Position numbers and translations under genes: made by a program. The notes under the pieces are model-generated. The model did no database searches. It worked only from the letters and a program-made list of their open reading frames with translations, and was not told where the DNA came from. DNA of 64,000 bases from the IMG/VR virus record IMGVR_UViG_3300045988_115163. One strand, given 5' to 3'. Position 1 is the stretch's first letter; every line of letters starts with the position of its first letter. Shown piece by piece: positions 8,363-61,722 of this stretch. The stretch is from a virus.

Positions 8363-9280
8363 ATGGAAGATAATAAAGATTTAGTAAAAGTAAACGTAGG
8401 CGACGAAGTAATTAGTCGCATTGATACACTCTGCAAGGTAGGATTTACCATGCCCGCAGATTATAACTACATTAACGCTATCAAAGCCGCCATGCTGGTA
8501 TTGGCAGATGTGAAAAACAAGAATGGCGTTCCGGCATTGCAAAGCTGTACAAAGAACAGTATTCAAACCGCACTCTTCAAGATGGCTACAAAAGGTTTGG
8601 ATATTTCAAAGAAGCAAGGATACATGATTGTTCGTGGCGACCAGCTTTGCTTTGAAGAAAGCTATTTTGGTACTTGTTTGCAGGCAAGAAGAGCATCACA
8701 ATATTTTGAACCAATTGCCAACATTATCTATAAAGGGGATATTTTTAAATTTGAAATTGACCCCAATACCGGACGCAAAAAGGTTCTTGAACATACTCAG
8801 ACTTTAGAATCTATTGATTCTGGCGAGATGGTTGGTGCTTATGCTTATGTTACCAATGACAAGGGAGAAACGGACATAGAGATTATGACGATGGCTCAAA
8901 TCCGCAAAAGCTGGTTTAAGAGTTCTTCTCAACAACAATTGGTACATAAGGAGTTTCCCGACCAAATGGCTCGCAGAACGGTAATTAAGAGAGGAGCAAA
9001 AATGCTCATCAATTCTTCAAAGTCTGTAGTAGACGACGATTTGGAAGAGGAAGTATTGAATCCAATAGATGCTTCACACCAGATTGAACCGGAATACGCT
9101 ACCTTTGAAGAGGTGCACAATGAAGTTCCTGCGGACGAACCGAAAGAAGCCGCATATAAAGAACAGGCAGATGCTTCGAAGAAATCAGGTAGAAGACCTA
9201 AAGCTAATCCAGAGCCTACTCCTGAACCTGCTCCGGCAGACCCACCTATTCAAGAGAACAACGAAGGCGAGGAGTTCTAA
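8363..9280 (+). CDS. recT: RecT-family single-strand annealing protein
   Basis: Size, a RecT-like core (KNSIQTALFKMATKGLDISKKQGYMIVRG ... GAYAYV ... MTMAQIRKSW) and an acidic/Pro-rich tail. Recombination-module context. Confidence 0.6.
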   Translation: MEDNKDLVKVNVGDEVISRIDTLCKVGFTMPADYNYINAIKAAMLVLADVKNKNGVPALQSCTKNSIQTALFKMATKGLDISKKQGYMIVRGDQLCFEESYFGTCLQARRASQYFEPIANIIYKGDIFKFEIDPNTGRKKVLEHTQTLESIDSGEMVGAYAYVTNDKGETDIEIMTMAQIRKSWFKSSSQQQLVHKEFPDQMARRTVIKRGAKMLINSSKSVVDDDLEEEVLNPIDASHQIEPEYATFEEVHNEVPADEPKEAAYKEQADASKKSGRRPKANPEPTPEPAPADPPIQENNEGEEF

Positions 9281-9997
9281 TGGAACTGAGAGTAATGGGT
9301 TCAAGCAGCAAAGGGAACTCTTATGCCCTTTGCTGCAACGAAGAGATTTTATTGGTTGAAGCTGGTATCAAAGTTCAAGACATAATTAAGGGAATTGATT
9401 ATCAATTGAAAAAAGTACGAGGGGTGATTTTCAGTCACCAGCATCTTTGACCACTCTAAGAGTGCACATGAATTTGTAAAGATGGGATTTCCGGTTTACA
9501 CCCATCCGGCAGCAGTGGAAGCATCCGGATTTATCGGATTGAATGGATTAAACCCTAAAAAGAAACTGGTCATGGGTGGATTTAAGATTCAAGCTATCGA
9601 AGTAAAGCATAATGTACCTTGCTATTCGTTTGTGATTGATTGTCCGGACACCAGTAGAGTTTTGTTCATTACTGACTGTGCAGACTTTCCTTGGAAGGTA
9701 AATGGAGTGAATCATCTTCTGTGTGAAGCAAACTATATGGAAGACATCATTCTGGATAGAGCCGCAAGAGATGAATGGTCGGCTTCTGCCAGTGGAAATC
9801 ACCTCTCCATAGAACAGTCGGTGAACATTATAAAGCGGCATTTTAGCGCAAAACTCCAAACGGTAGTACTGTTGCACCTCAGCGATGGAAATAGTGACGA
9901 AAAACGCTTTAGAGAGATGGTAAAAATAGCTACCGGAATTGAACCTTATATTGCCGATTCGGGAATGAAAATCAAACTTAATTTGGAAGACTTTTAG
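9280..9997 (+). CDS. metallo-beta-lactamase-fold hydrolase/nuclease, interrupted by a +1 frame change at 9445-9451
   Basis: Frame 1 reads MELRVMGSSSKGNSY...VIFSHQHL then TGA at 9448. Frame 2 continues DHSKSAHEF...LLHLSDGN. When joined, they give the exact HxHxDH motif (HQHLDH). Confidence 0.6.
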
Positions 9998-10120
9998 ATG
10001 ATGGAGTTCGTGAGATTTATAAGCAAAGACTTTGAGACATTCATCTGTTTCTTGATATTCCTTTGGATAATATTTTCGGGGATAGAAGGAATTGTAAAAG
10101 AATGGAGGAAAAATAGATGA
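9998..10120 (+). CDS. small membrane protein (40 aa)
   Basis: ATG immediately after the previous stop. Hydrophobic core FICFLIFLWIIF. ATGA overlap with the next ORF. Confidence 0.3.
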   Translation: MMEFVRFISKDFETFICFLIFLWIIFSGIEGIVKEWRKNR

Positions 10121-10329
10121 CCTATAAATGGAAGTTTAACGACTATCTTCAATCCATATACGATTGTACGATAGAGGCTAAAGATAAAAATCCGGTTTGT
10201 TACTACTTTCCGGTTACTCAGCTAGAATTAGCAGAGAACATGGATTTGGTAAAACAAGGATATAAAAAAGACATAATACCCACAACTCTCTTATGGATGA
10301 TTGTGGGAAAAAGAAAGAAAAGAAGATGA
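10117..10329 (+). CDS. hypothetical protein
   Basis: ATG ORF with ATGA overlaps at both ends. Confidence 0.45.
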   Translation: MTYKWKFNDYLQSIYDCTIEAKDKNPVCYYFPVTQLELAENMDLVKQGYKKDIIPTTLLWMIVGKRKKRR

Positions 10330-10814
10330 GTAAAGTATTCGTAGGGTGCGATAATGGGGTTTCCGGTACAATTGGTATAGTTGGCGATGGAATAGAACCC
10401 ATATTCGTAAAAACACCTACTAAAAAAGAGCAAGACTATACCAAGAAGAAGAAAATGATAACAAGGCTGGACTCTCTCAAATTTATTGCCTTATTTAATG
10501 GCATTAATAAGAGCGATATAACCTTTGTTATAGAACGTCCCTTAATAAATAGCACTCGCTTTAATGCTTCCATTAGTGGGGTAAGATGTCACGAAGCCAT
10601 GCTGAACGCTATTGAGATAATGGGATGCAGGTATATGTTCATTGACAGTAAGGAATGGCAGAAAGCACTTCTTCCACATGGTTGTGCCGGAGATGAATTA
10701 AAAAAGGCTTCTCTGGATATAGGAAATCGTTTATTTCCTAGGTTTGAAGATGTAAAGCATCCAGATAGAGACGGATTATTAATTGCTGAGTACGCTCGGA
10801 GGAAAAACTTATAA
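10326..10814 (+). CDS. RuvC-like Holliday junction resolvase
   Basis: N-terminal VGCDNGVSGTIG (first catalytic Asp), VIERP (Glu), and C-terminal HPDRDGLLIAEYA (Asp pair). ATG at 10326. Confidence 0.6.
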   Translation: MSKVFVGCDNGVSGTIGIVGDGIEPIFVKTPTKKEQDYTKKKKMITRLDSLKFIALFNGINKSDITFVIERPLINSTRFNASISGVRCHEAMLNAIEIMGCRYMFIDSKEWQKALLPHGCAGDELKKASLDIGNRLFPRFEDVKHPDRDGLLIAEYARRKNL

Positions 10815-11893: not shown

Positions 11894-12220
11894 ATGAAAA
11901 TTAACGAGTATCAATTAAAAGCACTGGAAACAGCTATCTATCCAGAAGATTGTAAAATCATTTATCCGGCATTAGGATTAACCGGAGAAGCCGGAGAAGT
12001 TTCGGATAAAGTAAAAAAGGTAATCAGAGACAATAACAGAGTATTCTCATCAGAAATAAAGCTAGAAATAGCCAAAGAATTGGGAGATGTTCAATGGTAT
12101 ATCGCTACGATGGCGCATGACCTTGGTTATTCTCTGGAAGAGATTTGTCAAATGAATATTGACAAGTTACAATCTCGGAAAGAGAGACATTGTATTAATG
12201 GCAATGGAGATAATAGATAA
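11894..12220 (+). CDS. MazG-like nucleoside triphosphate pyrophosphohydrolase
   Basis: LTGEAGEVSDKVKK ... ELGDVQWYIATMAHDLGYSLEEI ... NIDKLQSRKER is the typical small MazG signature. Confidence 0.8.
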   Translation: MKINEYQLKALETAIYPEDCKIIYPALGLTGEAGEVSDKVKKVIRDNNRVFSSEIKLEIAKELGDVQWYIATMAHDLGYSLEEICQMNIDKLQSRKERHCINGNGDNR

Positions 12221-30007: not shown

Positions 30008-30144
30008 AGTTTCTCCCAATTAGTTAATAATTCACACACAAAATAAAGCATTACTAACAAGTTAGAGATGAGAATATTCCCAAAATGTTATCATATCTGA
30101 TAAGATTACTTATATTTGAGAATTTTTTCAAACATAAAGAACGC

Positions 30145-30152
30145 TATTTTTG
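30145..30152 (+). promoter_or_regulatory. candidate -7 promoter box (TATTTTTG) for the terminase-portal-fibre operon
   Basis: TAnnTTTG match 14 nt upstream of the ATG at 30166, in a divergent intergenic region. Confidence 0.35.
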
Positions 30153-30165
30153 TGGTTATAAAGAT

Positions 30166-31788
30166 ATGGAAAAGGAGGAAGTAAAAAATAAAGCGAAAGT
30201 GTTTAGACCCCAAGCTGGTGGTCAAGAAGCATTTGTTAGATCAAACGTAGATGTTTGCTTCTTTGGAGGCGTATTGAACTGCGGTAAGAGCTTCGGTGCT
30301 ATTTTGTCTGTAGCTGAATGGTCTAAGATACCTCGTTTCCGTGCTGTTTTCACTCGTAGAAATCTACAAGACACCAAAGCTGGTGGTGGTATGGTAGATG
30401 AATTTAAAAACGTTTATGGTGATAGCGTTAAATCCAAGGAAACAGATAGTCCTCGTATAACTTTCCCTTCTGGTGCTTTTGTAGACATTACACATATTGC
30501 TGATGAAAATCCTAAGAAGTTGATGGAACGTGTCAAAGGATGGCAGTATGATATGGTATATATGGATGAGTTAACATCCTATGAGTGGTCTACATTCAAT
30601 ACAATTATTACCCGTAACCGTGGTTCGGCTGGTATCGGTTCAAAGGTACGTGGCACAACCAATCCCAAGAAGTCTCACTGGCTTCGGACATTCCTTAAAC
30701 CTTATATTGGATATGATGGCTTTATCCGTCCTGACATGGATAGAAAGGTGCTGTATTTCTTCATTGAAGGTGAAACTGTTGATACTGTTGTTTGGGGAGA
30801 AAGTAAAGAAGAGGTATATCAGAAATGTAAGATATCCATAGACCGTAAACTGAAAGCCGTTAATAAAGGAGTGGTCAAGTTTTCCTATGAGAACTTGATT
30901 AAATCCTTCTGTTTTATATTAGGTAATATAAGTGAAAACGTTGCTTCATTAGGAGATAATAAAGACTATATTGGTAGCGTTGCCGCATCTGGTGGAAAGC
31001 GTGGTCAAATACTTTTGGAAGGTAACTGGAACGTAGACGAAGACGACGATTCAGAAGCTCCTATACCATCTTCTGTAGCCAGAGAGACATTTATGACTGA
31101 CCCACAGCGAAATGGGGACAGATGGATTACAGCCGACTTAGCGGATTATGGAACAGATAATCTGGTAGCAATTGCATGGGATGGACTGCACATCTTGGAT
31201 GTTATGATTTTAGGGAAGACTACACCTAGAATGAATGCTGACAGATTATTATCATTTGCAGAAAAATGGGATATAGCAAACACTCATATTATATTCGATG
31301 GAACAAATGCAAGATACATGTCTGACTATATACCGGATGCTCTTCCTTTCCTTTCAAGTAATGCTCCCTGTGGAATGTACGCTCGTTCGGCTTACCTATT
31401 AAAAGATGAGTGCTATCTACGTCTAAGATTTCTTATTAATGAAGGTATGTTGTCGTGGGATGATGAAGTTGCTTCAAGACGCTATTATCATTCCAAGATG
31501 AAAGAAGAGATTAGCATACAGACAGAGTTTATCGAGGAATGTTCCGTTGTCCGGTTCAAGCAACAGTTCAGTGGAAAGTTCCGTCTTTTAAGTAAGAAGG
31601 AAATGAATCAGATGCTAGGTAAAGGGCGTTCTATGGACTTACTTGACCCTATAGCTTACCGGATGCTTCCATTGTTAGAATATAAATATGGAGAAGAGTT
31701 GACTCAAACAGCTAAGTTTGATGAACCGGAAAAAAGTATTATTACTCATAGAAGAGACAATATATATAATCCAAGTTTTTGGGCATAG
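30166..31788 (+). CDS. terL: terminase large subunit
   Basis: Walker A-like FFGGVLNCGKSFG, Walker B MVYMDELTS, and a C-terminal nuclease-sized domain. ATG at 30166. Confidence 0.85.
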   Translation: MEKEEVKNKAKVFRPQAGGQEAFVRSNVDVCFFGGVLNCGKSFGAILSVAEWSKIPRFRAVFTRRNLQDTKAGGGMVDEFKNVYGDSVKSKETDSPRITFPSGAFVDITHIADENPKKLMERVKGWQYDMVYMDELTSYEWSTFNTIITRNRGSAGIGSKVRGTTNPKKSHWLRTFLKPYIGYDGFIRPDMDRKVLYFFIEGETVDTVVWGESKEEVYQKCKISIDRKLKAVNKGVVKFSYENLIKSFCFILGNISENVASLGDNKDYIGSVAASGGKRGQILLEGNWNVDEDDDSEAPIPSSVARETFMTDPQRNGDRWITADLADYGTDNLVAIAWDGLHILDVMILGKTTPRMNADRLLSFAEKWDIANTHIIFDGTNARYMSDYIPDALPFLSSNAPCGMYARSAYLLKDECYLRLRFLINEGMLSWDDEVASRRYYHSKMKEEISIQTEFIEECSVVRFKQQFSGKFRLLSKKEMNQMLGKGRSMDLLDPIAYRMLPLLEYKYGEELTQTAKFDEPEKSIITHRRDNIYNPSFWA

Positions 31789-33915: not shown

Positions 33916-34305
33916 ATGGATTGGCAAAGCATCATAACGATTGTAAGTGTATTATTAGGTGGTGGTGGAGCGATTGCTCTATATAAAGCTAAACCTGAGA
34001 AGGTTTCTTATGAAATAAAGAATCTGCGTGAAATCATCGAAGAGATAAAGAAAAATCGAGATGAGGACAAAAGAGAGAATAGAGAAGAAATCGAGAGACT
34101 TAATCTTAAAATAGGAAAGTTAGAATTAAACGATGATATCAAGTCCAGAGCCATTTCAAAATGGCTCACTTGCCATTTTATACCAAGGGAAAGTAATTGT
34201 CCTGTAGCTGAATTTATCGAGAATGCAGAAAAGATTATTCAGAAGAAAACAGAACAGATTAACAATATAAAAGAAAAGAGAAATAATGAGCAAGCAATTA
34301 GTTAA
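33916..34305 (+). CDS. membrane-anchored coiled-coil protein
   Basis: N-terminal TM helix IITIVSVLLGGGGAIALY followed by a charged helical region. Overlaps the fibre start by 20 nt. Confidence 0.5.
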   Translation: MDWQSIITIVSVLLGGGGAIALYKAKPEKVSYEIKNLREIIEEIKKNRDEDKRENREEIERLNLKIGKLELNDDIKSRAISKWLTCHFIPRESNCPVAEFIENAEKIIQKKTEQINNIKEKRNNEQAIS

Positions 34306-37300
34306 AATCTTCACCTATGTAGACGGAGTGAATGATACTCCTTTTCCAAATGAAGAGAATCAATTAATTATTCCTGAGTATTCCTTTAGTGATATCCGCA
34401 TGGGTTCTGTGAACCTAACCGCTACTGCAATGTATCCGACCTGTTTGGATGATAAATGGGTTACAGGAAAACAATATGCTGATTTTCGTGGTGAGAGATA
34501 TTTTATAGTTAAAACTCCGTCTTCTTCCAAATCAAACGACGATGTTCGATATAAACATGACATTGAATTCGTTTCTGAAAGAAACATCTTGGAGACTATT
34601 TATTTCTATGATGTTGTATCTGATAACACTTCGGTAGACCGATATGTAAGTAATAGCACAAAGGTATTGTTCTACGGAGATGTGCATGAACTGGTTGCTC
34701 GTTTGAATTATTCTCTGGAATATAGTCAGGTATCCTACCGAGTTGTCGTTGATGCAGGCATTACTTCCGAGGTTAAGCAGGTCTCTTTAGAAGATGTGTT
34801 TGTCTTTGATGCTATACAGGAGATTTTCAATATCTTTGAACTTCCTTTTTATTTCGTAGGAAAGACATGTCATGTTGGCTTTACGGATAATGCCATTACT
34901 CATACATTCCGGTATGGAAAAGATTATGAGTTGCTTTCCATTAATAAGACAAATGCCAATTATAAAATAACCAACCGAGTTACCGGAACGGGTAGTTCGG
35001 ATAACATTCAGTTCTATTATCCAAATCCAAGCAACGACCGGGCAGAGATTGAAGCGGCAGGCGGGAAATGGATAACTCCGGCTGGCACTCTTATGCCTCC
35101 TATCTATCGAGATACGGACGGTGCAGAGCGTTTCTATAATGCAATTAATAAAAGGTATATCAATCCAGAAACAGGAGAATACTATGTCTTTGAGAATGAA
35201 TTTACAACAGCTAGTCAGAAGGAACAAATTGTTACTTTTGAAGATATAAAGCCTACAATTAAAAACACTCTCAATGCTGCCGGTTTACGCATAGACGAAA
35301 TTATAGATGTAGCTTTTGACAAGGACGATAACGATGAGGTAGACGAAAGCACCGGAGATTATGTTCATTCTTACTTCTATGTAAAGCTGAACCGTTTTAG
35401 TGGAGACTACGGATTCAACTTATTCGAACAACCGATTGTAGGTAGCGACGCTTCTATTGTAATGACAAGTGGAAATTGTAATGCTTGTACATTCCAAATT
35501 GGAGTTATAGAAGTAGAAGAAGATGGAAAGACTGTTTTTAAGAATCCGGTACAAGTTGACAAAAATGGCAATATTGCAGAAGGTAACTATGCCGATAAAG
35601 TAAAGCCTAATAACATACAAGCCAACCAGCAAGATACTACACAGAATGAGGTATGGATTGCTTTGAAAAAAGACAATACTACCTTTGGTATGGTAATGCC
35701 GAATAAGAATGGAAATATCAGACCCTCCTATGGGGACAGCTTTGTTATCACAAACATTGATATGCCGCAGACCTATATCTACAAGGCAGAGAATGAATTG
35801 GAAGAAGCTATCCTTAAATACATGGCTAACAATAATAGTGAAAAGTTTACGTTCTCTATTAAGTTAAGTCGTATCTTCCTTGCTGAAAATCCGGCTATAG
35901 AAGCACTGATTAATTCAAGTGCACGTATTGATTTAGAATACAATGGCAAATACCATCAGCTTTATGTATCCAGCTATACTTATCGTTCAGATAGTGAAGT
36001 TCTACCGGAAATTACGATTGAACTGGCAGATACACTTACGATAAGTAAGAACTCCATTCAGACCAGCATTGATTCTGTCAAGCAGGATATAATGAATACT
36101 ATTGGAGGTGTAGACTTCTTGAAACAAGGTCTGAAATACTTTCTTCGTAAAGATACGGAAGATATTGCACGTTTCTTTATTTCTTTCCTGAGAGGTATCA
36201 AGATTGGCAACTATGTATCCGGTGGAGACATTGGCGGTATATTTGCTGTTGATGGGAATGGAAAGACATTCATTGAGACTGACTTCTTAAAAGTACGTAT
36301 GAAAGCCTACTTTGAGACGTTAGAGATTATCAATACCGGTAGTATTGCCGGACGGCAGATTATCACTCCCGGTGGCTCTATCAAATGTATTAAGGTAGTA
36401 GACCGAGAGGAAATAATTAACGAAGATGGAGAAAAAGAAGAAAAGGTATGGAACTTCTACCGGTGCTATTTCCTCGCTGAACAAGATGGAGTAAAGGTAG
36501 AGAATCGTTTCCGTAAAAACGACCAAGCTCTTTCACAGGACTTCAACATCAAAGAGGGTGTTTATGAAAATGTTTCCAATCATTATTATTGGAGACTGGT
36601 TGTGGGCGTAGGCGATGATTATATTGACTTGTCTAAGACCGATGCAGATACAAAGAGTGATGCTCCGGCTATAGGCGATGTAATCTGTCAATTAGGTCAC
36701 AGAGACGACAAAGTACCAGAACGCCAGAACGCCATGATATTTAGTGCGGTGGATTTATATTCTCCGTCTTTAACCATGTATGCTGGCATTAATTCCTATT
36801 CCTATGTGAATAAGGATTACATCTCTTATGGCGTTGATAAGACGACCAACAAAGCCTTTATGAATGTCTATGGAGATACTTATATTGGCGATAGGAATCG
36901 TACTTCTTATATGGAATTTAAGACTGGAAAAGGTCTGAAAATAAAAGGTCAATTGGAGGTAGGCTCAACCATCGGAAATGGTTCAACCATTGAAGGCGCT
37001 TTAGACAAAGCGACTCAGGATGCTATTGATGCAGCTACCGAAGATTTGACTAACTACGCTAAAGAGGTAACAGAAATCCTGAATAACATTCAATATCAAA
37101 TAGATGGTCAAATTGAAAGTTTCTTTGAAAAATATAGCCCAACTCTGACGAATAAACCTGCCGTTGATTGGACTACCGAGGAATTAAAGAAACAACATGC
37201 CAATGATACCTTTACCAACATTGATACAGGCGAAAGCTGGAAATGGGTAAAAGATGGTACTACTTGGAAATGGAGTGTCATTGAAGATACAGCTACTCTA

Positions 37301-40300
37301 AAAGCATTGGCGGCTGCATCCAAAGCACAAGATACAGCAGACGGGAAACGTAGAGTATTTGTTGCCAAACCTACTAATGAACAGGTTTATGACGTTGGAG
37401 ACTTATGGGTAAATGCAACGTATGGTACGACTTATCACAATGATATTCTTAGAGCCAAGACAGCGAAGAAAGCCGGAGAAGCATTTAATATTTCTCATTG
37501 GGAATTGGCTTCTAAATATACCGATGATACCAAGGCGAATGAAGCTGCGGAAGCGGCTGCGGCAGCACAAGAAGCTGCGGAACAAGCTGCAACGGCTGTG
37601 GATAATTTGAATACCTACGTGGATGGTGCATTTAAGGATGGTGTGATTGAAGAATCCGAAGCACAAGCCATTGAGAAATATATAAACATCGTAGACAACG
37701 CTAAGAAAACAACTGATGCTGCCTATACTAAATTGTATGCAAATACATATCTTACAGGAGCAGCAAAGACCGGATTGAAATCTGCCAAAGATAAGCTGGA
37801 CATTGCGACCACTAATCTTATCAATTCAATCAACACTGCTATTGCCGATGGTCAGACTACAGTTGCAGAAAAGAACGATGTAGATGCTAAATTTGCAGCT
37901 TACAATACAGCGAATGAAGCCTTTAGTACCGCAGTGGAAGTGGCTAATGGTGCTATTCAGGATTTATTAAAATCTTATTCAGACCAAGCTAAAGAAGCTG
38001 CGGTTGCTGCACAGGCTGCGGCAGATGCGGCACAAGCTGCGGCAGACAGTGCATCGGATGCAGTAGACGATTTAAACGGATATGTTGATGGAGCGTTTAA
38101 AGATGGAGTCATAGACGAAGCGGAAGCTAAAGCGATAGAAAAGTACATCAATGTAGTAAATGGTTCTAAAGCAGCAACCGATGCTACATACACCAAACTG
38201 TATTCCAATAAATATTTATTAGGGACAGCAAAAGAAAACTTAAAGACAGCTAAAGATAAATTAGATGTTGCGACTACTGCCCTTCTTACCTCTATACAGT
38301 CTGCTATTGCGGATGGGAAGACAACAGCGGAAGAGAAAGCTGCGGTAGATACAAAGTATGCTGATTTTAATAAGGCTAATGAAGACTTTAATACAGCCAT
38401 AGAAGCTGCAAATCTATCCATTCAGAACATGTTGAAGAGCTACGCTGATGCAGCATTAGCGGCAGCGGAGGCAGCGCAAACTTCGGCAGATGCGGCTAAG
38501 ACAGCGGCAGATAATGCAGCCGGGGCAGTAGGAGACTTGAATGACTATGTAGATGGAGCTTTCAAAGACGGTATTATTGATGCTTCTGAGGCACAGGCAA
38601 TAGAGAAGTATATCAATATTGTAAATAATACCAAAGGTGAAGTAAAGGCAACATTTGATAAACTATATGCCAATGTCTATTTAACTGGTGCAGCGAAGAC
38701 CGGATTAAATTCAAGCTACACGGCTTTGAATACCGCCATCACAAATCTACTTAATTCAATTAATACCGCTATAGCAGATGGAAAAACAACGGCATCGGAG
38801 AAAGCGGATGTGGATTTAAAATACGCTTCTTTCAACACTGCGTATGCTTCTTTCAATACAGCCGTAGAAACAGCGAACAAAGCCATTCAAGATAAATTGA
38901 AGACTTTTGCAGATGATGCTAAAGCCTTGGCGGAGTCTGCACAAGCTGTAGCAGATGCAGCAAAAGACAGATTAGACTCATGGGCTGAGGATGGAGTTAT
39001 TTCACCTACCGAAAAACAAGGTATTAAAGATGAAATAGCCAGAATTAAAGCGGATAAAGATAATATTTCCGCAGGATATGAATTATATAATCTGGGAGAA
39101 GCGACTGCTTACAATACAGCTTATACAGATTATTACAATAGCCTTTTGGTGTTATCTGACACGACTAAAGAAACGATTGAGATACCAACCGATTTTGCGA
39201 CTAAGCAGACTAAATATTATACTGAAAGGACTGCGGCATTAAATGCGATTGCATCCGCTTCTAAATCTGCGGTTGATGCTGCACAGGCTGCGGCAGATGC
39301 GGCTAAAAGTCGTTTAGACTCATGGGCAGCGGATGGGGTTATCTCTCCGGCTGAGAAACAAAGTATCAAAGATGAGAGGGCACGAATTTTAGCAGATAAG
39401 GCGGATATAACTACTGGATACACACGTTATAATTTAGGAACTCCAACGGACTATAATACAGCCTATACAGCCTACGATACGGCATTGGCTGCACTGTCAA
39501 AAGATACACCAGAGGTTATAACTATCCCTTCGGACTTTGCTACGAAGCAAAAGAATTATTATACCAAGCGTACTGCGGCTATTTCTGCAATAGATGCTGC
39601 TACAAAATCAAATGCCGATGCTGCGGCTGCTGCGGCTGCAAAAGCACAGGAAGATATTGATAACGTAAAGACCGATATCAATAAAATCAATTCCGATGTA
39701 GCCGGATTAAAGAACTTTACTGATGATGCTTTTGCTGATGGAGTAGTAGACCGTGGAGAGGCTTCTGCCATCGGTGCTTATCTGAAAAGCATTGCTACAG
39801 TTAAAGCCGATGTAGACAAAAGTTATACAGAAGTCTATGCTAATCCGTTACTTGCCGGAACAGCTAAGACTACATTGAACACAACTTATACGGCTTTTGG
39901 GAAAGCTGTAGAAGAACTTACTACCGTTATTGAAGCCGTTGTAGAAAAAGGGATAGCCGATGCAACCGACAGAGCTTCTGTAAATGGTAAATACGATGCT
40001 TTTAATACAAAGTACGGAGCTTTCATAGCTGCTTTAAATGCTGCCAATACTTACATTCAAGACCAGATTGAGAGTAAGGCAGAAAATGCTTTAACGGAAG
40101 CTGTTAGCTATCGCTATTTAAAGAAAGCATTTAGCGAATATACTATTATTGAAGGTGGCTTAGTCCAAAATTCACTCAATGTTTTAGGATACACCAATGA
40201 TAAAAAAGAATTTGTCGTACAAGCCGGAATGAATGGTATATATGACGCTTCTCAAACACATGGTGGTATTGCTGCATGGTATGGTGGTTCTATGAAGGAC

Positions 40301-43300
40301 TATTTCGATTATACTGATTTGGACAGACCGAAAGATGTAGCCAAAGGAGTTGACCGCATGGATGGTACTGGATATCGGGCTAACGGAAACTTATGGTGGG
40401 ACGAAAATGGTGAGGTTCACGCTGACCCGCTTTCTTTCTTTGTTGGAACAGAAACAGTTGGTGGATTGTTAGCGTCTTTCCAAGTGGTAATGACCAATAA
40501 AAAACCGGACTATCTTATTCCAAAAGTACCATTCCAAGACTTAACCATATCAAACAATCTCACAGTTGGTGGAGACATCATCTTAAAAGATGGTATTCTG
40601 AAATGGGATGCGGCTAACAATGCTTTCTATGTAGAAAAGAAAGACGGTTCTATCGCTAGCTTCTATGCAACCGGAGAAGTATCAGCCGGAGGTGCTGGCT
40701 CTGGTGGAAGTGGTGGCGGAGGCGGTCTCATTGAGAACGTCTATGGCTCTTCTTCTCTTGGAGACGAATTTTCTGATTCAGACTTAAACAATACGTTCAA
40801 CGCCTACAGTATCAATCAGATATATTTGGACGTAAAAAATTTGAAGTCTGGTGCAGCCGTCAGTTTAGTTGTTAATGGAACAGGAACAGTTCTTACGAAT
40901 ATTGTAAAAACAGGTTCAACGATTACCGCTACCAAAGGAAATCTAGCATTCTCTTCATTGACATCAAAGCCAACTACCATCGCTGGTTATGGCATTACAG
41001 ATGCTTATACTAAAACTCAGGCAGACGGTAAATATGTTTTAAAGTCTGGTAGTAATATGACCGGAACACTGAACTGGGTTGGTGCAGATGCAAATATTTA
41101 TCCCATTCTTTTAGGAACAAACCATTATATAGGCATTGATGGTTCTGCGGGAAGTTCCATGTTGCATTGGGATGGAACTAGAACTCATGTGGGGTCTTTA
41201 AATGGTTCTGTTGCTATCAGGTCTAACGCAACAGACCTTATTCATAATTATAATGGCACTGGATATATTATACTAGATGCTCGTAACTACAATAACTATG
41301 CTCCCAAAAAAGATGGGACGGGTGCTGGCGGAAATTGGGCTATCAATGTTTTAGGATGGGCACATCGGCTACATCAAGCATTGGGAAATAAAACAGCGGA
41401 ACAAGTATTTACCGACAATGGAGTATATTATTACCAAGTATCAAGTGCCGAGGATACCGGTTATCCGACTGATTATGGTCATGGACTTATGCTTCAAAAG
41501 TCTTCTGGGGATACGCTTACAAGTTCACAAGCTGTTCTTGATATATTCACTCCGACTTCGGGGACTAACCTTGTATATCTAAGAACAGGTATAGGGAATG
41601 GCACGAAAATAACATGGCAGGCATTCCAGCAAATACTTCATACAGGGAACTACACTTCTCTTATCACTAAGTTGGGAACAGCGACCGTTGGTTCTACCGT
41701 TAAACCATTCTATCTTAATGCGGGTGTTCCTACAGCATTTACAACGACCGTTGGTTCTGCTAGTCTTCCTGTATATATGAATGCTGGCTCTATTACAGCA
41801 TGTTCAACGACGCTGGGTGTAAGCATCACGGGAAACGCAGCCACAGCGACAAAGTTGGGTACGGCTACCGTAGGTTCTAATACGAAGTTCTTCTATTTGA
41901 ATGCGGGTACTCCGACGGCTTCTAATGCTTCTATTGGTACAGGTACTCACCCAATCTATCTAAATGGGGGTGTATTCACTGCTTCTACCTCTACAGTCGG
42001 GTCAGCTAGTAGAGGTATATATATGACTGGTGGATTGCTTACAGCTATGAGCGCAACTGTAGGCTCTGCTTCCCTTCCGGTTTACATGAATGCAGGTACA
42101 ATCACTCAGTGTTCTACAACATTAGGCGTATCTATTACTGGAACTGCACCAAGATTAACAACAACAGAATTAACTAATCAAGACTTAAACAGTTATACTT
42201 ACACTAACTATTCTGGCAAGTTGTACTATGCAGGCGGAAGTAATACCACAACCAATGTACCTTCTGGTGTAGGTGCTTACGGTTTGATGGTATGGAGAAT
42301 CGCTACTGGATATACCGGACATCTGATGTTTGATTCTGCTGGTGATTTTAGAGCAAGATTCCATAATGGTACGACTTGGTCAGCATGGGATAAGTTAGCT
42401 TATATCACTGATAATGTAGCAAGCGCAACCAAGTTACAAACGGCACGTACCATAAACGGAACTTCGTTTAATGGTACTGCAAATATAACAACCGCAAACT
42501 GGGGAACGGCTCGCAATCTCACTATTGGTGGTGCTGTCAAAAGCGTCAATGGTAGTGCAAACGTTTCATTTAGTCTTAATGAGATAAATGCTGCATATGG
42601 TAGAAATGTAACATATACAGGTACTACAACAGCACAAGGATGGTATAGATTAGCTTCTACAGGGCAAAATATAAATACAACAAATTCGTTATTCTTTATA
42701 TCTGTAACGGTATCTGGACAACATTCTACGTTCTTGTTGCAGGTATCTACCAATTATGGTAATAATCCAAGTCTTATTCAATTAGGAGGTTCTAATTATT
42801 CAACTGCATCCATAGACCAATTCCGTTTGGTTTACCATACGACTTATTCTGGTCATTATGGCTATTTAGAAGTAAGGTCAAGAGGTGCAATGACAGATGC
42901 GACATTCAATGTCTTTTTGGTAGGTAGAGCTAATACTACATGGACTTTATCTACGGCATTAACCGCAGGTAGCATTCCGGAAGGATATACCAGCAAGACA
43001 TTAACACCTGCTTCTGCATCTATCGTTGCTCCAACCTTTAGAGGTGCTTTAGTAGGTAATGTTACCGGTAACGTTACTGGTAATTTAACCGGAAATGCTT
43101 CTACAGCTACTTCCCTACAAACAGCCAGAACTTTGTGGGGTCAGTCCTTTAATGGAACAGCGAATATAACCGGAACATTGCTCGGGGTTGAAAGCCTAGT
43201 TGCAAGAAGTGGTCGTATCAACAACTTCTTAGGTTATTTTGATTATTCAGGTAATCCGGCAACAGGAACTATCTGTATTACACTACCGAATGGCTGGACT

Positions 43301-46300
43301 TCCAGTATGAATATTTATGAAATATGGATATATGAATATAATACGACTGCGAATGCTTCTGTCATTACAATTGGTGCATATAATTATAATGGTGGTGGAA
43401 CTGCAAGTAGTGCGAAATGGGTAAATATTGGATACCATACAAAAGGTGCTTACAGTAAAGGTGTACGTTTAGCATATAACGGTAGTAAATGTGTTATTCT
43501 ATTAGGAACTACGGCTACTAAATGGTATTGCCCCAAAGTATATCTAAAAACAATTTATACAGGACATGGTAATCAGACTATTTGGGGAGGAACTTCTACC
43601 ATCTCTTTGATTACTTCGGAGACCGGATACACCAATATTGATACACCCGCTAGGATGGATGAGTTCTTCGGAGATACATCGGTAACAGGCAGACTTGCAG
43701 TAACCGGTGCAGGACACTTTGGGTACACTTATACCACAATGACAGCGGGTATTAATGTTAAGGGTGATAGCGCAACAACGGGTATCTCTATCTATGATGG
43801 TACGGGAAATACTGCTCGTTTATACCGAAAAGGGGATATTCTATATATTACCAGAGGCGGTAATGATAACGCTGGTCTTCTTATGAATACAGCCGGAAGT
43901 ATATATCCCGGAACAAATAATGCTTTGGCAAATGGAACAAGTTCTAATCGCTGGTCAAACGTATATACCCAATTACTTAACGTAGCAGGTCTGGCAACGA
44001 CTTCAAGAATACTTGCTTCTGACGAAATACAATCAACCTCAGCTAAGGCTTTCCGTGCCATTTATGGTAGCTATGGCTTTTTCATATATAACGATGGTAA
44101 TTCCTCCTATTTTATGTTGACTGCCAAAGACGACCAGTATGGAACTTACAATAGTTTAAGACCCCTGTATATAAATAACAGTACCGGTGTTGTAACTATG
44201 GAAAATGGTACAAACATTAGAGGTATTCTAAACGTAACAAATACTACAGAAGCTACCGCAACTACTGTTGCCGCTATAAAGACAGCAGGTGGTATTGGAG
44301 TCGCTAAACAGTTGAGAGTTGGCGGTGCTGTAACTTTCAGTTCTACTCTCAGTGTTACAGGTCAGATTACTGCATCCGGTGGACTTCGGATTGGCAACTA
44401 CTACCTGAAATCTACAGCGGACGGATTGGCACTTACTCACGTAACTACCGGAACGGTTGCTAACTTCTACGCTACTGGTGAAGTTTCTGCGGGTGGTGTA
44501 GGTTCAGGCGGTTCAGGCGGTGGCGGTGGACTAATCGAGAATGTGTATGGATATAGCAAATTGAATGGAGAGTATAAAGATACCGACCTCAACAACACAT
44601 TCAATGCTTATACCATTGCACAAATCAATAAGCGGGTAGTTAGTCTGGAAGGCGGTTCTGCATTGACTGTAACGACTACCGGTTCAGGTAATGCAGTGAC
44701 TTCGGTTGCCAAGTCCGGTACGGCTATTACCGTAACAAAGGGTACTACCTTTGTTGATATTACAAATACCCAAACTATTGGAGGAACAAAAACGTTCTCT
44801 TCATCTATACGAATGGGACGAAGTAGTCTTCATTATGTTAATAACTCAACGTCCAACAATGCTACAGGATTACATTGGAAGACAGCTAACTATGCAGCCA
44901 CTCAATTTGGTATTGGTTGCTTCACCACAAACAATGCTTCTCCGAGAGGATTTATCGGTTGGACTTCTGAGCCGTGGAATGTTGCAAATAGCTTAACGGT
45001 ATCTGAGACCTCTTTGACCTATAAAGGTAATGCAATCCTTCATGCTGCCAACTATAATACTTACGCTCCGACGAAAACGGGTGGTGGTGCTTCCGGTTCT
45101 TGGGGCATATCAATTACTGGCAATGCGGCTACCGCCACTACAGCTACTAAACTTGGGACAGCTACCATTGGCGCAGCGAATAAACCCATTTATCTGAACG
45201 CAGGTACTCCAACGGCACTCTCATCAACAGTAGGTGATAGCACTGTTCCGGCTTACCTAAATGCTGGTACGGTTACTGCCTGCTCATGGGGATTAGCCGG
45301 AGCTTCTGGAAAGCGTGCAAGAAAGAGTGGATATATAACTAGCAGTACTTCGGGGTTGGCTAGCTATTGGGGAAAGATAGCTTCCTTCAATTGGGGTGAT
45401 ACATCAAACGGTAGAGATATAACTCTTTATATACATTCTGCATTCAATAGTTTGTGGGGAACTGTTGTTATAAGAACTAGATGGAGTAGTGCAACCTCTA
45501 CTGTTATTGATTTTAGAATAATAAACGGTAATATTCCAACTAGCAGACTTCGATTGTATTATGATGTTTCATCTAAGGATAATGCTGTAACTTTGTGGGG
45601 AGACGTAGCTAGTCAATGGGGAGTATTTAATACATACGTATTGTCTGAAACGACAAGAACAAGTACTGAAATTGGCGATGTCACATTATATACTACATCG
45701 TTTACTACTGCTCAAACAGTGCCGACAAGTACGTATAAAGAACCAACTTATCTTACCATTCGCAATAATGCTGCTACTTCTGATGTTGCAGATAAGTTAG
45801 GGACTTCAACGGTTGGTTCTGGGATTAAGCCGATTTACCTAAATGCGGGAACGGCTACCGCTTCTACTTCAACTGTTGGTGCAGCCAATAAAGGTGTGTA
45901 CCTGTCAAGTGGTACTATTACTGCAATGTCTTCTACAGTCGGTTCTACAACTGTACCAGTGTATATGAATGCAGGAGCGATAACTGTTTGTAGTACTACA
46001 CTTGGAGTGAGTATCACCGGTAATGCAAAAACAGCTACTACTTTACAGACCACCCGTAAGATATTTAGCCAACCTTTTAGTGGCGCAGGTGACGTTGCCG
46101 GACAAGCGTTCGTATATGGTACTTATCAGGAGACTGCAAGTAGTAGGTATTCGAATGGTGGTCTACAAATAAGAGAGAATGGTCTAGTTGGTGATAAACA
46201 AACCGCAGATGGGTATGCTCCTGCTATCGGCTTCCATTGGGAAAACAGAATCGGTGCGAGCTTGATATTAACGACTTCGGGTTTCAAATTTATGAACTAC

Positions 46301-61334: not shown

Positions 61335-61703
61335 ATGAACAGAATACAGAAATTAGAAGCTGAAATACAGAAGCTAAAGAAGCAGGAAGCCGATAAAAAA
61401 AAGGCAAAATATCAATATCTCGTTGGAAAGTGTATTCATATGGCGCATACTTCTTATGAAAAAATCACAGCGATAGTTAGGGTAAATACTGATGAAATCG
61501 GTGATGAAGTGGTATTTGATTGCATACATGTATATTTTGACAATAGAGAAGATGTAAGTAATAGTGATTCAAGCATCCAACTTGCATCTTATTCAAGTGA
61601 ATACGTGGAACGGATTGAGAAAAATATCATAAGTCAAGAAGTTTTTGACAAGGCTATGGATGATTGTTTTGCGCATATTAAAAGAATGTCTATTAACGTG
61701 TAA
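61335..61703 (+). CDS. hypothetical protein
   Basis: ATG ORF preceded by TAACTATAAAG. Confidence 0.5.
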   Translation: MNRIQKLEAEIQKLKKQEADKKKAKYQYLVGKCIHMAHTSYEKITAIVRVNTDEIGDEVVFDCIHVYFDNREDVSNSDSSIQLASYSSEYVERIEKNIISQEVFDKAMDDCFAHIKRMSINV

Positions 61704-61722
61704 CTATAAAGAAAGAAATCAA

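What the first reader, a model, noticed from the sequence alone, without database searches (positions are those of the whole stretch)
9428..9451. prfB-like CTT TGA C site splits a metallo-beta-lactamase-fold gene exactly inside its HxHxDH motif
Seen in the sequence:
- The ORF starting at 9280 (MELRVMGSSSKGNSY...VIFSHQHL) stops at TGA 9448-9450.
- The +1 frame is open from 9428 and continues DHSKSAHEF... to 9997.
- A +1 shift on CTT TGA C (9445-9451) yields ...SHQHLDHS..., a perfect H-x-H-x-D-H zinc-binding motif.

Established knowledge: CUU UGA C is the shift site of the programmed +1 frameshift in bacterial prfB (RF2).

The nearest Shine-Dalgarno-like element (GAGGGGTG, 9419-9426) lies 18 nt upstream, not the 3 nt seen in prfB. 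The canonical stimulator is therefore absent.

Three explanations remain open:
- a programmed, RF2-sensing +1 frameshift;
- a genuine inactivating 1-nt insertion in the TTT run;
- a homopolymer sequencing error.

The gene sits beside RecT and may be its nuclease partner.
Basis: partly seen in the sequence, partly recalled or inferred. Interest (0 to 1): 0.65.

Follow-up and report, generated by a model that had tools for sequence, protein, structure and literature searches.

The report
Recoded break in phage hydrolase gene
A gut phage gene for a metal-dependent hydrolase carries one extra base, on a CTT TGA C site, inside its active-site motif; this is real, widespread and probably read through by a ribosomal +1 shift, and relatives, including cultured phages, carry similar short stop-containing inserts at the same spot.

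Summary
ORF 9280-9450 ends HQHL-TGA, and skipping T9448 gives a 238-aa metallo-beta-lactamase-fold (MBL) protein with a perfect HxHxDH motif (AlphaFold pLDDT 93).

It is not a sequencing error. The same 56-aa ORF occurs on 107 public contigs.

Compared with an intact allele of the same phage species, only 9288-9462 differs, by about 50%. The flanks are 97-99% identical. So the break lies near the 3' end of a swapped-in block.

Homologues (28-61% identity) are interrupted in at least eight other ways, by 6, 7 or 14 nt. Examples are CGG TGA CGG, CTT TGA CTA, and CAA TGA CAG in cultured Cellulophaga phages phi18:3 and phi46:3.
- All lie inside HxHxDH.
- All but one use TGA, and none uses TAA.
- Nearly all are flanked by synonymous codons, so a short ribosomal hop restores the motif exactly.
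- Most follow a strong hairpin.
- Two have an HNH homing-endonuclease gene abutting the gene.

Best reading: a prfB-like +1 frameshift, one case of a family of mini coding gaps resembling the T4 mobA-gene 60 cassette. In Bacteroidia this shift site works without a Shine-Dalgarno sequence (about 7%). A tolerated null allele is not excluded, and no expression data exist.

The parts
8363..9280 (+). RecT-family single-strand annealing protein gene, immediately upstream. Its stop codon overlaps the MBL start (TAATG).
   Evidence: Pfam RecT 2.4e-32 and phrog_148. RecT-MBL adjacency is conserved in the related loci and in cultured phages.
9280..9447 (+). First segment of the MBL-fold gene: codons 1-56, frame 0, ending S-H-Q-H-L.
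   Evidence: It matches profile positions 1-56 of the family. The exact product is seen on 107 contigs.
9288..9462 (+). Replaced block, about 50% divergent from the intact allele of the same phage species, with the frame break 14 nt from its 3' end. Flanks are 97-99% identical. The 5' edge lies at the RecT stop / MBL start.
   Evidence: Base-by-base comparison with L395/L396 (intact allele P0187) and L399. The same pattern is seen against L004.
9423..9439 (+). Weak 7-bp hairpin (GGTGATT / AGTCACC, loop TTC), 5 nt upstream of the shift codon.
   Evidence: The upstream 42-nt MFE is -7.8 kcal/mol, which is not unusual against 145 intact relatives (45th percentile). In the relatives' 6-14-nt gaps the equivalent hairpin is far stronger (-18.7 to -21.2).
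9419..9426 (+). SD-like GAGGGGTG, 18 nt before CTT. Probably irrelevant.
   Evidence: The spacing is wrong for +1 stimulation. Bacteroidia ribosomes ignore SD sequences (PMC10798248). The window's genes are SD-poor.
9445..9451 (+). Shift site CTT TGA C: P-site Leu codon, RF2-specific stop in the weak UGA-C context, and first base of the resumed frame.
   Evidence: Identical in every contig of this allele examined. Same heptamer as prfB (established knowledge; PMC10798248).
9448..9448 (+). The single untranslated base (a 1-nt coding gap).
   Evidence: Removing it restores CAT CTT GAC CAC = H-L-D-H and a continuous 238-codon ORF.
9449..9997 (+). Second segment of the MBL-fold gene: frame +1, DHSKSAHEF... 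to TAG 9995-9997.
   Evidence: It matches profile positions 57-244. There is no start codon between 9428 and 9481 that would include the D-H residues.

Best explanation
**What it is.** The gene at 9280-9997 encodes an MBL-fold phosphodiesterase/nuclease that sits next to RecT in very many phages. In this phage, the first ~175 nt of the gene (9288-9462) have been replaced by a diverged homologous block. That block carries one extra T (9448) between the L and D codons of HxHxDH.

**How it is most likely read (inferred).**
- The ribosome reaches CUU UGA C with peptidyl-tRNA-Leu in the P site.
- UGA-C is decoded only by RF2, and slowly.
- In a fraction of ribosomes the tRNA slips from CUU to UUU (+1), and GAC is read next.
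- The product is the full 238-aa enzyme with an intact metal site. The other ribosomes release a useless 56-aa peptide.
- This is the prfB mechanism. In Bacteroidia, the probable host class, it needs no Shine-Dalgarno sequence and yields a few per cent.

**Wider pattern (shown).** Homologues carry 6-, 7- and 14-nt stop-containing inserts at the same motif. These can be bridged by the P-site tRNA re-pairing to a synonymous codon just downstream (a 'stop-hop'), usually after a strong 5' hairpin.

**Why the gaps exist (inferred).** The gaps appear to be parts or remnants of HNH homing-endonuclease cassettes, like T4 mobA-gene 60. An indel in DNA that encodes an invariant motif would block endonuclease cleavage, and recoding would keep some enzyme.
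For: **1. Real and widespread.**
- The same site is present in all contigs of this allele.
- The 56-aa ORF is on 107 contigs; intact-allele proteins are on about 31.

**2. The fused product is a sound MBL protein**.

**3. Signs of selection within the species.**
- Two haplotypes sharing the break differ at 13 sites.
- The 3 upstream sites are synonymous only in frame 0, and the 10 downstream only in frame +1. P is about 1e-8 if the changes were neutral.

**4. Nine interruption configurations in homologues.** They fall in at least six lineages, each nearer to an intact relative than to any other interrupted lineage, and all lie inside HxHxDH.

| Source | Junction |
|---|---|
| window | CTT T GAC |
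| L006 | CTT TGAA CTT |
| L130 | CTT TGA CTA |
| L011, L014 | CGG TGA CGG |
| L015 | CGG TAG CGA |
| L010 | CGG TGACAAAAAAA CGA |
| L257 | CGA TGA AGT |
| Cellulophaga phages phi18:3 / phi46:3 | CAA TGA CAG |

- Deleting the gap restores H.H.DH in every case.
- Of about 360 loci, the only interruption elsewhere in the gene is one in-frame stop on a low-coverage contig.

**5. Stop choice.** TGA is used in 8 of 9 configurations, against 22% of ordinary stops in the window (p = 4e-5). TAA, the commonest stop, is never used.

**6. Upstream hairpins.** Perfect 11-12-bp hairpins end 0-2 nt before the take-off codon in six configurations. Their MFE is -18.7 to -21.2, against a median of -7.4 in 145 intact genes.

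**7. Cassette signature.**
- Sharply bounded diverged blocks end at the gap.
- Configurations D, E and G share a near-identical 30-60-nt block although the genes are only 41-63% identical.
- An HNH gene abuts the MBL start in L006 and L130 and is absent from L006's intact sisters L177/L178.

**8. Shine-Dalgarno independence.** prfB frameshifting runs at about 7% in Flavobacterium johnsoniae without SD (PMC10798248). The window's genes are SD-poor with A-rich leaders, and the nearest genomic relatives are Bacteroidales.

**9. Other routes to the full protein look closed.**
- No tRNA is found in the window's 64 kb or in the first 50 kb of phi18:3's 71-kb genome.
- TGA is an ordinary stop in the window.
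Against: - There is no expression, proteomic or reporter evidence for any of these genes.
- In the window itself the upstream hairpin is weak and not unusual, and the local fold has z = 0.
- The purifying-selection argument is weakened. Four of the ten downstream synonymous differences also occur in the intact allele, so that region recombines among alleles. Only three substitutions are specific to the interrupted block (all synonymous, p about 0.014).
- Nine Logan contigs carry a further A6-to-A5 change at 9410-9415 that would wreck the motif. This is either decay or assembly error.
- Configuration G (CGA TGA AGY) has a landing codon that matches at only 2 of 3 positions.
- The 'matched' codons may partly reflect homology, because HRH and H.HL are common variants of the motif.
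- The HNH gene near the window's relatives lies upstream of RecT and looks tied to a RecT replacement, not to the MBL gene. No endonuclease gene lies next to the break in the window.
- The gene may be dispensable.
Confidence: 0.6

Rival explanations
1. Tolerated null allele. The replaced block with its frameshift, perhaps a scar or by-product of homing-endonuclease-driven gene conversion, simply inactivates a dispensable accessory gene. No meaningful full-length protein is made. The rest of the gene looks healthy because the event is recent and because it keeps recombining with intact alleles.
For: - An intact allele coexists in the same species, and the downstream polymorphisms are shared with it.
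- A sublineage carries a second frame-breaking change.
- Most interrupted configurations have a close intact sister (81-90% identity), so the events look young.
- One unrelated in-frame stop exists elsewhere in the family (L110).
- Cultured phi18:3 and phi46:3 are viable with the split gene, which would also fit dispensability.
Against: - Random inactivation would not hit the same three codons in at least six lineages.
- It would not choose TGA in 8 of 9 cases and never TAA.
- It would not leave synonymous codons on both sides, so that a hop restores the exact motif in 7 of 8 multi-nt gaps.
- It would not pair with exceptional upstream hairpins.
- L014 and L015 differ at 22% of bases (dS 1.35, dN/dS 0.085), and their inserts differ (TGACGG against TAGCGA), yet both remain Arg-stop-Arg.
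- The interrupted allele is the majority allele, 107 against about 31 contigs.
Confidence: 0.3
2. Sequencing or assembly error: a spurious extra T in a TTT run, with the true gene uninterrupted.
For: Only that the extra base lies in a short T run.
Against: - The identical sequence occurs in independent assemblies from IMG/VR, ENA, NCBI and Logan: 107 contigs for the upstream ORF and 119 index blocks for the downstream ORF.
- It is embedded in a 175-nt block that differs at about half its bases from the intact allele.
- Relatives carry multi-base inserts at the same place.
Confidence: 0.005
3. Two-piece enzyme. The 56-aa N-terminal peptide and a separately initiated C-terminal protein assemble without any recoding.
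For: Gene callers annotate two ORFs here and in phi18:3 (gp020 + gp019). Split enzymes created by homing-endonuclease insertion are known, for example T4 gp39/gp60 and Aeh1 NrdA (bioRxiv 10.1101/2022.08.31.505936).
Against: - No ATG, GTG or TTG lies in the +1 frame between 9428 and 9481. The first start (ATG 9482) lies 11 codons after the D-H pair, so the catalytic Asp-His would never be translated.
- The same holds in phi18:3, where gp019 starts 27 nt after the stop, and in L011, where the first Met is about 24 codons downstream.
Confidence: 0.03
4. Stop-codon read-through or suppression, not hopping, explains the in-frame relatives. The window's case would then be an unrelated accident.
For: UGA-C and UGA-A are leaky contexts (established knowledge). 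Five configurations are in frame.
Against: - Read-through would add two residues inside HxHxDH, whose spacing is invariant in all 195 relatives.
- It cannot rescue the +1, +7 and +14 configurations.
- No suppressor tRNA is found in the window or in the first 50 kb of phi18:3.
Confidence: 0.04

Closest known systems
Programmed +1 frameshift of bacterial prfB (RF2)
   Same: The heptamer CUU UGA C is identical. An RF2-specific stop sits in the A site. Slippage of P-site tRNA-Leu gives the functional product, and the zero-frame product is a short dead peptide. In Bacteroidia the site works without SD pairing, at about 7% (PMC10798248).
   Different: The gene does not encode RF2, so there is no autoregulatory loop. 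No SD lies at the -3 spacing. The site is not ancient: it is allele-specific and sits near the end of a swapped-in block. It lies inside an active-site motif.
T4 gene 60 bypass with the MobA homing-endonuclease cassette
   Same: In L006 and L130 an HNH endonuclease gene lies immediately upstream. It is followed by an element-encoded diverged copy of the gene's 5' part, then by a non-coding gap that starts with a stop codon about 50 codons into the ORF. Similarity to the parental gene resumes at the landing codon. The locus also shows matched take-off and landing codons, a 5' stem-loop, repeated independent occurrences at one location, and copies that have lost the endonuclease ('hit and run') (bioRxiv 10.1101/2022.08.31.505936, sections 6 and 12).
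   Different: The gaps are 1-14 nt rather than 50 nt. The gene family is different (MBL rather than topoisomerase). The gene is not split by the endonuclease ORF itself. There is no evidence yet for a nascent-peptide signal, for the endonuclease's target, or for efficiency. The window has no endonuclease gene next to the gap.
Synthetic 'stop-hops' in E. coli (Weiss, Dunn, Atkins and Gesteland 1987)
   Same: The in-frame relatives have exactly that design: a codon, a stop, then a synonymous codon, so that 9 nt specify one amino acid.
   Different: Those were engineered constructs with efficiencies of about 1%. The 2016 review states that no natural in-frame stop-hop is known (PMC5009743). The cases here are natural, recurrent and preceded by strong hairpins.
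Streptomyces phage phiHau3 terminase: 10-nt inserts bypassed at UUA
   Same: A phage gene with short (10-nt) inserts whose bypass is triggered by a slow A-site codon. Flanking structures are proposed as stimulators (PMC10732093).
   Different: The trigger there is a rare sense codon tied to host development, not a stop. There is no link to an active-site motif or to homing endonucleases.
'Savior' indels with compensatory frameshifting (herpesvirus thymidine kinase G-run)
   Same: A frame-breaking indel is advantageous at the DNA or selection level, while low-level frameshifting supplies just enough enzyme (PMC5009743).
   Different: That shift occurs on a homopolymer under drug selection in an animal virus. 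Here the site is a stop-dependent +1 site in a phage, and the presumed selective agent (an endonuclease) is inferred, not shown.

Membership tests
prfB-type programmed +1 ribosomal frameshift | Shift heptamer CUU UGA C, with the stop in the zero frame. | tested here: met
   9445-9451 = CTT TGA C, in frame with ATG 9280.
prfB-type programmed +1 ribosomal frameshift | The +1 frame continues as the conserved remainder of the protein, and the junction restores conserved residues. | tested here: met
   The fused protein gives HQHLDH and matches the family profile end to end.
prfB-type programmed +1 ribosomal frameshift | Shine-Dalgarno-like stimulator 3 nt upstream of CUU. | tested here: not met
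   The nearest SD-like element ends 18 nt upstream. This feature is dispensable in Bacteroidia (PMC10798248), and the window's genes are SD-poor.
prfB-type programmed +1 ribosomal frameshift | Autoregulation: the product is RF2 itself. | tested here: not met
   The product is an MBL-fold hydrolase. At most it could sense RF2, not regulate it.
prfB-type programmed +1 ribosomal frameshift | Shift site conserved among relatives. | tested here: inconclusive
   It is invariant within the allele (over 100 contigs, two haplotypes). It is absent from the intact allele and from more distant relatives, which carry other gap types.
prfB-type programmed +1 ribosomal frameshift | A measured frameshift product. 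| not testable with these tools
   Needs a reporter assay or mass spectrometry.
Translational bypassing / hopping (T4 gene 60 type, stop-hops) | Take-off and landing codons that the same peptidyl-tRNA can pair with, flanking an untranslated gap. | tested here: met
   Relatives show CTT/CTT, CTT/CTA, CGG/CGG (twice), CGG/CGA (twice) and CAA/CAG. CGA/AGY matches at only 2 of 3 positions. In the window the two codons overlap (CTT/TTT), which makes it frameshifting rather than hopping.
Translational bypassing / hopping (T4 gene 60 type, stop-hops) | A slow-to-decode codon (a stop) in the A site at take-off. | tested here: met
   TGA in 8 of 9 configurations, TAG in one, TAA in none. The fourth base is C or A.
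Translational bypassing / hopping (T4 gene 60 type, stop-hops) | [quoted passage not shown] | tested here: inconclusive
   Perfect 11-12-bp hairpins end 0-2 nt before take-off in six relative configurations, stronger than at least 99% of intact genes. The window's hairpin is weak, and phi19:3 (intact) carries the same hairpin as phi18:3.
Translational bypassing / hopping (T4 gene 60 type, stop-hops) | Part of a homing-endonuclease mobile cassette whose insert blocks self-cleavage. | tested here: inconclusive
   HNH genes abut the MBL start in L006 and L130, and there are replaced blocks ending at the gap. HNH-like ORFs lie within 2.5 kb in 13 of 28 interrupted loci against 10 of 251 intact loci. 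Cleavage specificity is untested, and there is no HNH gene near the gap in the window.
Metallo-beta-lactamase (MBL) fold superfamily | The HxHxDH motif together with the further conserved His/Asp positions and the MBL fold. | tested here: met
   Pfam Lactamase_B_2 and Lactamase_B pass their cut-offs. H53, H55, D57, H58, H110 and H174 are invariant. The model has pLDDT 93, and the top PDB matches are YhfI, ElaC/RNase Z and PhnP.
Apyc1 anti-Pycsar cyclic-nucleotide phosphodiesterase | Specific similarity to Apyc1 beyond the general MBL fold. | tested here: inconclusive
   PF23023 is only a faint precomputed hit on relatives and does not reach 0.01 for the window protein. Apyc1 structures rank 22nd or lower (TM 0.61-0.64), behind YhfI and ElaC. 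Some GenBank phage homologues are annotated Apyc1-like.
Decaying pseudogene | Several independent disabling lesions and relaxed constraint (dN/dS near 1). | tested here: not met
   The main haplotypes carry a single lesion and show 13 synonymous against 0 non-synonymous differences. Within or between interrupted configurations dN/dS is 0.085-0.26. The exception is a minor A5 variant on 9 contigs. Caveat: recombination with intact alleles.

The most novel reading that the evidence does not exclude
Phage MBL genes next to RecT may host a previously unrecognised class of mini coding gaps (1-14 nt: a codon, a weak stop, then the same codon again), placed exactly in the DNA that encodes the invariant HxHxDH motif.
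- The gaps would be spread by, or left behind by, HNH homing-endonuclease cassettes.
- They would be translated by +1 slippage or by natural 'stop-hopping', driven by a refolding 5' hairpin.
- This would be the first natural in-frame stop-hops.
- It would also be a second, independent example, after T4 mobA-gene 60, of recoding used to tolerate an indel that makes a gene immune to an endonuclease.
- A cultured system is available to test it: Cellulophaga phages phi18:3 and phi46:3 against phi19:3 and phi13:2.
Probability: 0.45. Interest if true: 0.85.

Novelty: new variant of a known kind. Interest (0 to 1): 0.78.

Why it matters
**For the recoding field.** Programmed bypassing has long rested on very few natural cases: T4 gene 60 and its homologues, Magnusiomyces mitochondria and phiHau3. 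In-frame stop-hopping is known only from synthetic constructs; the 2016 review says 'no occurrences are known' (PMC5009743). This locus offers about nine natural configurations of one theme, with gaps of +1, +6, +7 and +14. Each has a built-in control in a closely related intact allele, and two cultured phages of a genetically tractable Bacteroidia-type host carry one. The rules of take-off, landing and 5'-hairpin drive therefore become directly testable.

**For phage evolution.** It would show how selfish endonucleases and translation interact. DNA that encodes an invariant motif cannot escape a nuclease by synonymous change, but it can by an indel if the ribosome will skip it.

**For genome annotation.** These genes are currently annotated as two ORFs or as truncated proteins. 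Examples are gp019/gp020 of phi18:3 and the 56-, 141- and 171-aa calls made on over 100 contigs.

Tried and rejected
- **Nucleotide search against cultured phages.** Megablast of 8363-10120 found no match. This phage has no close cultured relative.
- **Phage-encoded tRNA.** I looked for a suppressor or frameshift tRNA and found none in the window or in the first 50 kb of phi18:3.
- **Alternative genetic code.** Rejected, because TGA, TAG and TAA all end ordinary long ORFs in the window.
- **Split protein by re-initiation.** Rejected, because no start codon would include the Asp-His pair.
- **Stimulatory structure in the window.** The 93-nt fold has z = 0.0 and the 7-bp hairpin is not unusual, so I make no claim of a structural stimulator here.
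- **Donor of the 9288-9462 block.** Blastn against all fetched loci matched only its own allele.
- **Profile search of the 5.8-billion-protein set.** It listed only the 120 best hits, all full length, so it could not count fragments.
- **DNA pattern for the shared hairpin cassette.** In IMG/VR it recovered only configuration G.
- **Searches for close relatives of L130 and L011 in IMG/VR.** These found nothing useful.
- **The 141-aa 'variants'.** These turned out to be gene-caller start choices on the same DNA.
- **Linking the upstream HNH gene to the MBL break.** The HNH upstream of RecT in haplotype H2 goes with a RecT 5' replacement instead.
- **Infected-cell proteomics of phi18:3.** None was found in the held literature.
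Full report
**1.

- ATG 9280 opens a 56-codon ORF that ends ...VIFSHQHL, with TGA at 9448-9450.
- The +1 frame is open from 9428 and runs to TAG 9995-9997.
- Skipping T9448 joins CAT CTT to GAC CAC and gives a 238-aa protein with SHQHLDHSK.
- The fused protein passes Pfam Lactamase_B_2 and Lactamase_B. It matches PHROG 392 'metal-dependent hydrolase' end to end.
- It is predicted with mean pLDDT 93.3.
- It resembles YhfI, ElaC/RNase Z and PhnP most closely, and Apyc1 less closely.
- Upstream lies RecT (8363-9280), and further upstream an SbcC-like ATPase. Downstream is a RuvC-like resolvase.
- The window is a tailed phage. It has a large terminase at 30058-31788 and a 5161-aa tail-like ORF.
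- It uses the standard genetic code and encodes no tRNA.
- Its gene starts are SD-poor and A-rich. The nearest genomic homologues of the MBL gene are in Bacteroidales. A Bacteroidia host is therefore likely, though this is an inference.

**2. It is not an error**

- The identical CATCTTTGACCAC is found in IMG/VR and ENA contigs.
- The exact 56-aa ORF is recorded on 107 contigs from NCBI, JGI, ENA and Logan. The downstream ORF is in 119 index blocks.
- Ten further contigs read base by base show the same site.
- These contigs fall into two haplotypes that differ at 13 positions. The three upstream differences are synonymous only in frame 0. The ten downstream differences are synonymous only in frame +1.

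**3. The break lies near the 3' end of a replaced block**

- An intact allele exists in the same phage species: SHSHGDHSKY, proteins P0175, P0184 and P0187, on about 31 contigs.
- Against contigs carrying it (L395, L396), the window is 97-99% identical through RecT and through the rest of the MBL gene.
- Between 9288 and 9462, however, about half the bases differ. The same picture is seen against L004.
- The block begins at the RecT stop / MBL start and ends 14 nt after the extra T.
- No donor for the block was found among the fetched loci.
- Caveat: four of the ten downstream synonymous differences between the two interrupted haplotypes also occur in the intact allele. That region therefore recombines among alleles, and the 13:0 synonymous count overstates the selection acting on interrupted copies. 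Only three substitutions are specific to the block, and all three are synonymous.

**4. Homologues are interrupted at the same motif, in recodable ways**

Truncated hits in the protein search led to contigs in which a 55-56-aa ORF precedes the rest of the gene. An HMM survey was then run over 279 loci, followed by 80 loci from sequenced genomes. The junctions found are listed below.

| Configuration | Example locus | Junction | Gap |
|---|---|---|---|
| A | window | CAT CTT T GAC | +1 |
| B | L006 | CAT CTT TGAA CTT GAT | +7 |
| C | L130 | CAC CTT TGA CTA GAT | +6 |
| D | L011 | CAT CGG TGA CGG CAT | +6 |
| E | L014 | CAC CGG TGA CGG CAC | +6 |
| E' | L015 | CAC CGG TAG CGA CAT | +6 |
| F | L010 | CAT CGG TGACAAAAAAA CGA CAT | +14 |
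| G | L257 and about 15 contigs of ~85 kb | CAC CGA TGA AGT CAT | +6 |
| H | cultured Cellulophaga phages phi18:3 and phi46:3 | CAC CAA TGA CAG GAC | +6 |

- In phi18:3 the gene is annotated as two CDS, gp020 and gp019. The sister phages phi19:3 and phi13:2 have CAC CAA GAT CAT.
- Removing each gap restores H.H.DH, which is present in all 195 distinct sequences.
- The only interruption elsewhere in the gene is one in-frame stop on a contig of 3.9x coverage.
- The configurations fall in at least six lineages. Each is closer to an intact relative than to any other interrupted lineage.

**5. Features that point to selection for translation across the gap**

- *Stop choice.* TGA is used in 8 of 9 configurations, against 22% of ordinary stops in the window (p = 4e-5). 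TAA, the commonest stop, is never used. The next base is C or A.
- *Flanking codons.* In 7 of 8 multi-base gaps the codon before the stop and the last codon of the gap are synonymous. Re-pairing of the P-site tRNA would then give the exact motif. Simple +1 shifting in B, or read-through in C, D, E, G and H, would add two residues inside a motif whose spacing never varies.
- *Divergent pair.* L014 and L015 differ at 22% of bases (dS 1.35, dN/dS 0.085). Their inserts differ at 3 of 6 bases, yet both remain Arg-stop-Arg.
- *Upstream hairpins.* Perfect 11-12-bp hairpins end 0-2 nt before the take-off codon in C, D, E, E', F and G. Their MFE is -18.7 to -21.2 kcal/mol, against a median of -7.4 in 145 intact genes. 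B is intermediate (-13.0) and the window is ordinary (-7.8).
  - With the take-off codon in the P site, the 3' arm of such a hairpin lies inside the ribosome while the 5' arm is free.
  - Refolding would therefore pull the mRNA so that the ribosome moves forward. This is the role proposed for the 5' stem-loop of gene 60 (bioRxiv 10.1101/2024.12.09.627546, abstract). Its application here is an inference.

**6. Link to homing endonucleases**

- In L006 an HNH (NUMOD4/HNH_3) gene sits between RecT and the MBL gene and overlaps its start. The intact sisters L177 and L178 (90% and 82% identity) have RecT abutting the MBL gene.
- Similarity between L006 and L177 is lost from the end of RecT and resumes just after the gap.
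- L130 has an HNH_3 gene ending at the MBL start, and a second NUMOD4/HNH_3 gene just downstream.
- Configurations D/F, E/E' and G share a near-identical 30-60-nt block (GGTGGYTGRYTGTTTAGYCAGCCAYCGR followed by the stop), although the genes are only 41-63% identical. That implies one mobile segment.
- phi18:3 differs from phi19:3 almost only in a 45-nt patch beginning at the insert.
- HNH-like ORFs lie within 2.5 kb in 13 of 28 interrupted loci against 10 of 251 intact loci. The loci are not independent, and in configurations A, D and E the HNH gene lies upstream of RecT, where it accompanies a RecT 5' replacement.
- The architecture matches that described for the T4 MobA element: an endonuclease gene, an element-encoded diverged homologous region, then a gap that begins with a stop, with the element ending at the landing codon. 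There the insert prevents self-cleavage and some copies have lost the endonuclease (bioRxiv 10.1101/2022.08.31.505936, sections 6 and 12).
- It remains an inference that the MBL gaps protect against an endonuclease which recognises DNA encoding an invariant motif.

**7. Mechanism proposed for the window**

- Peptidyl-tRNA-Leu would slip +1 from CUU to UUU while UGA-C waits for RF2, as in prfB.
In Flavobacterium johnsoniae, prfB frameshifting is about 7%, and an SD-less natural site works as well as the native one (PMC10798248).
- The expected outcome is a few per cent of full-length enzyme and a majority of a 56-aa dead-end peptide. Whether that level is regulatory (sensing RF2) or merely sufficient is unknown.

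**8. What argues against this reading**

- No expression data exist for any of these genes.
- The window lacks a convincing stimulatory structure.
- Configuration G has an imperfect landing codon. Its post-stop codon looks like the recipient gene's own residue, so matched codons may owe something to homology, since HRH and H.HL are common variants.
- The hairpin of phi18:3 is also present in intact phi19:3.
- A minor sublineage of the window's allele has an extra A6-to-A5 change that would destroy the motif.
- Intact and interrupted alleles coexist, which would also fit a dispensable gene.
- I therefore put programmed +1 recoding at about 0.6, a tolerated null allele at about 0.3, and the other explanations at a few per cent together.

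**9. Novelty**

- The +1 site alone would be one more use of a known shift site.
- The family pattern appears to be undescribed. It comprises natural stop-hop-type gaps at one active-site motif, with hairpins and endonuclease cassettes, and includes cultured phages.
- The held literature gave no report of it.
- The 2016 review states that no natural in-frame stop-hop is known (PMC5009743).

Noticed in passing
window 34271-49756 (+): A single 5161-codon ORF. Its first 1500 aa match PHROG tail and tail-fibre families and a glycerophosphoryl-diester-phosphodiesterase-like family. Its last 1500 aa match nothing.
   Followed up: partly
window 8368-9091; L001 1453-2824: Two haplotypes of this phage differ by a cassette. 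Haplotype H2 has a NUMOD4/HNH_3 endonuclease gene upstream of RecT plus a different RecT 5' part of about 720 nt. The window (H1) lacks the HNH gene. This looks like a second, separate homing cassette that targets RecT.
   Followed up: partly
window 9410-9415; L385-L390: Nine Logan contigs have A5 in place of A6, giving ...QLKKYEG-TGA, and still carry CTTTGAC. This is either a second frameshift, meaning the allele is decaying, or a homopolymer assembly error. Three of them also have the frame-0-synonymous change CAG to CAA in the HQH codons.
   Followed up: partly
L391 / L394 (Cellulophaga phages phi18:3 and phi46:3): The split MBL gene is identical (0 differences in 750 nt) in two phages assigned to different genera, Baltivirus and Bacelvirus. 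That implies recent exchange of this module.
   Followed up: partly
L402 4444-5664: A relative of the window phage with the intact allele carries an IS605 OrfB/TnpB (Cas12f-like) gene a few genes downstream. The other contigs lack it.
   Followed up: no
window 10293-10814, compared with L004 5250-6192: The window has a RuvC-like resolvase where close relatives have RusA plus another HNH endonuclease gene. This is a non-orthologous replacement of the Holliday-junction resolvase.
   Followed up: no
L110 about 2814: This is the only interruption found outside the motif: a single in-frame stop at profile position 220, on a contig of 3.9x coverage. It is probably a mutation or an error.
   Followed up: partly
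window, upstream of the 58 longest ORFs: Only 16% have a GGAG/GAGG/AGGA motif at -20 to -5, against a background of 8%. The leaders are 45% A. This is the Bacteroidia style of translation initiation.
   Followed up: partly
window 61633-62517 and 11894-12220: The phage carries a PAPS-reductase-like gene and a MazG-like pyrophosphatase gene, both auxiliary genes. The Cellulophaga phage phi19:3 also has a PAPS reductase gene a few genes downstream of its RecT and MBL genes.
   Followed up: no
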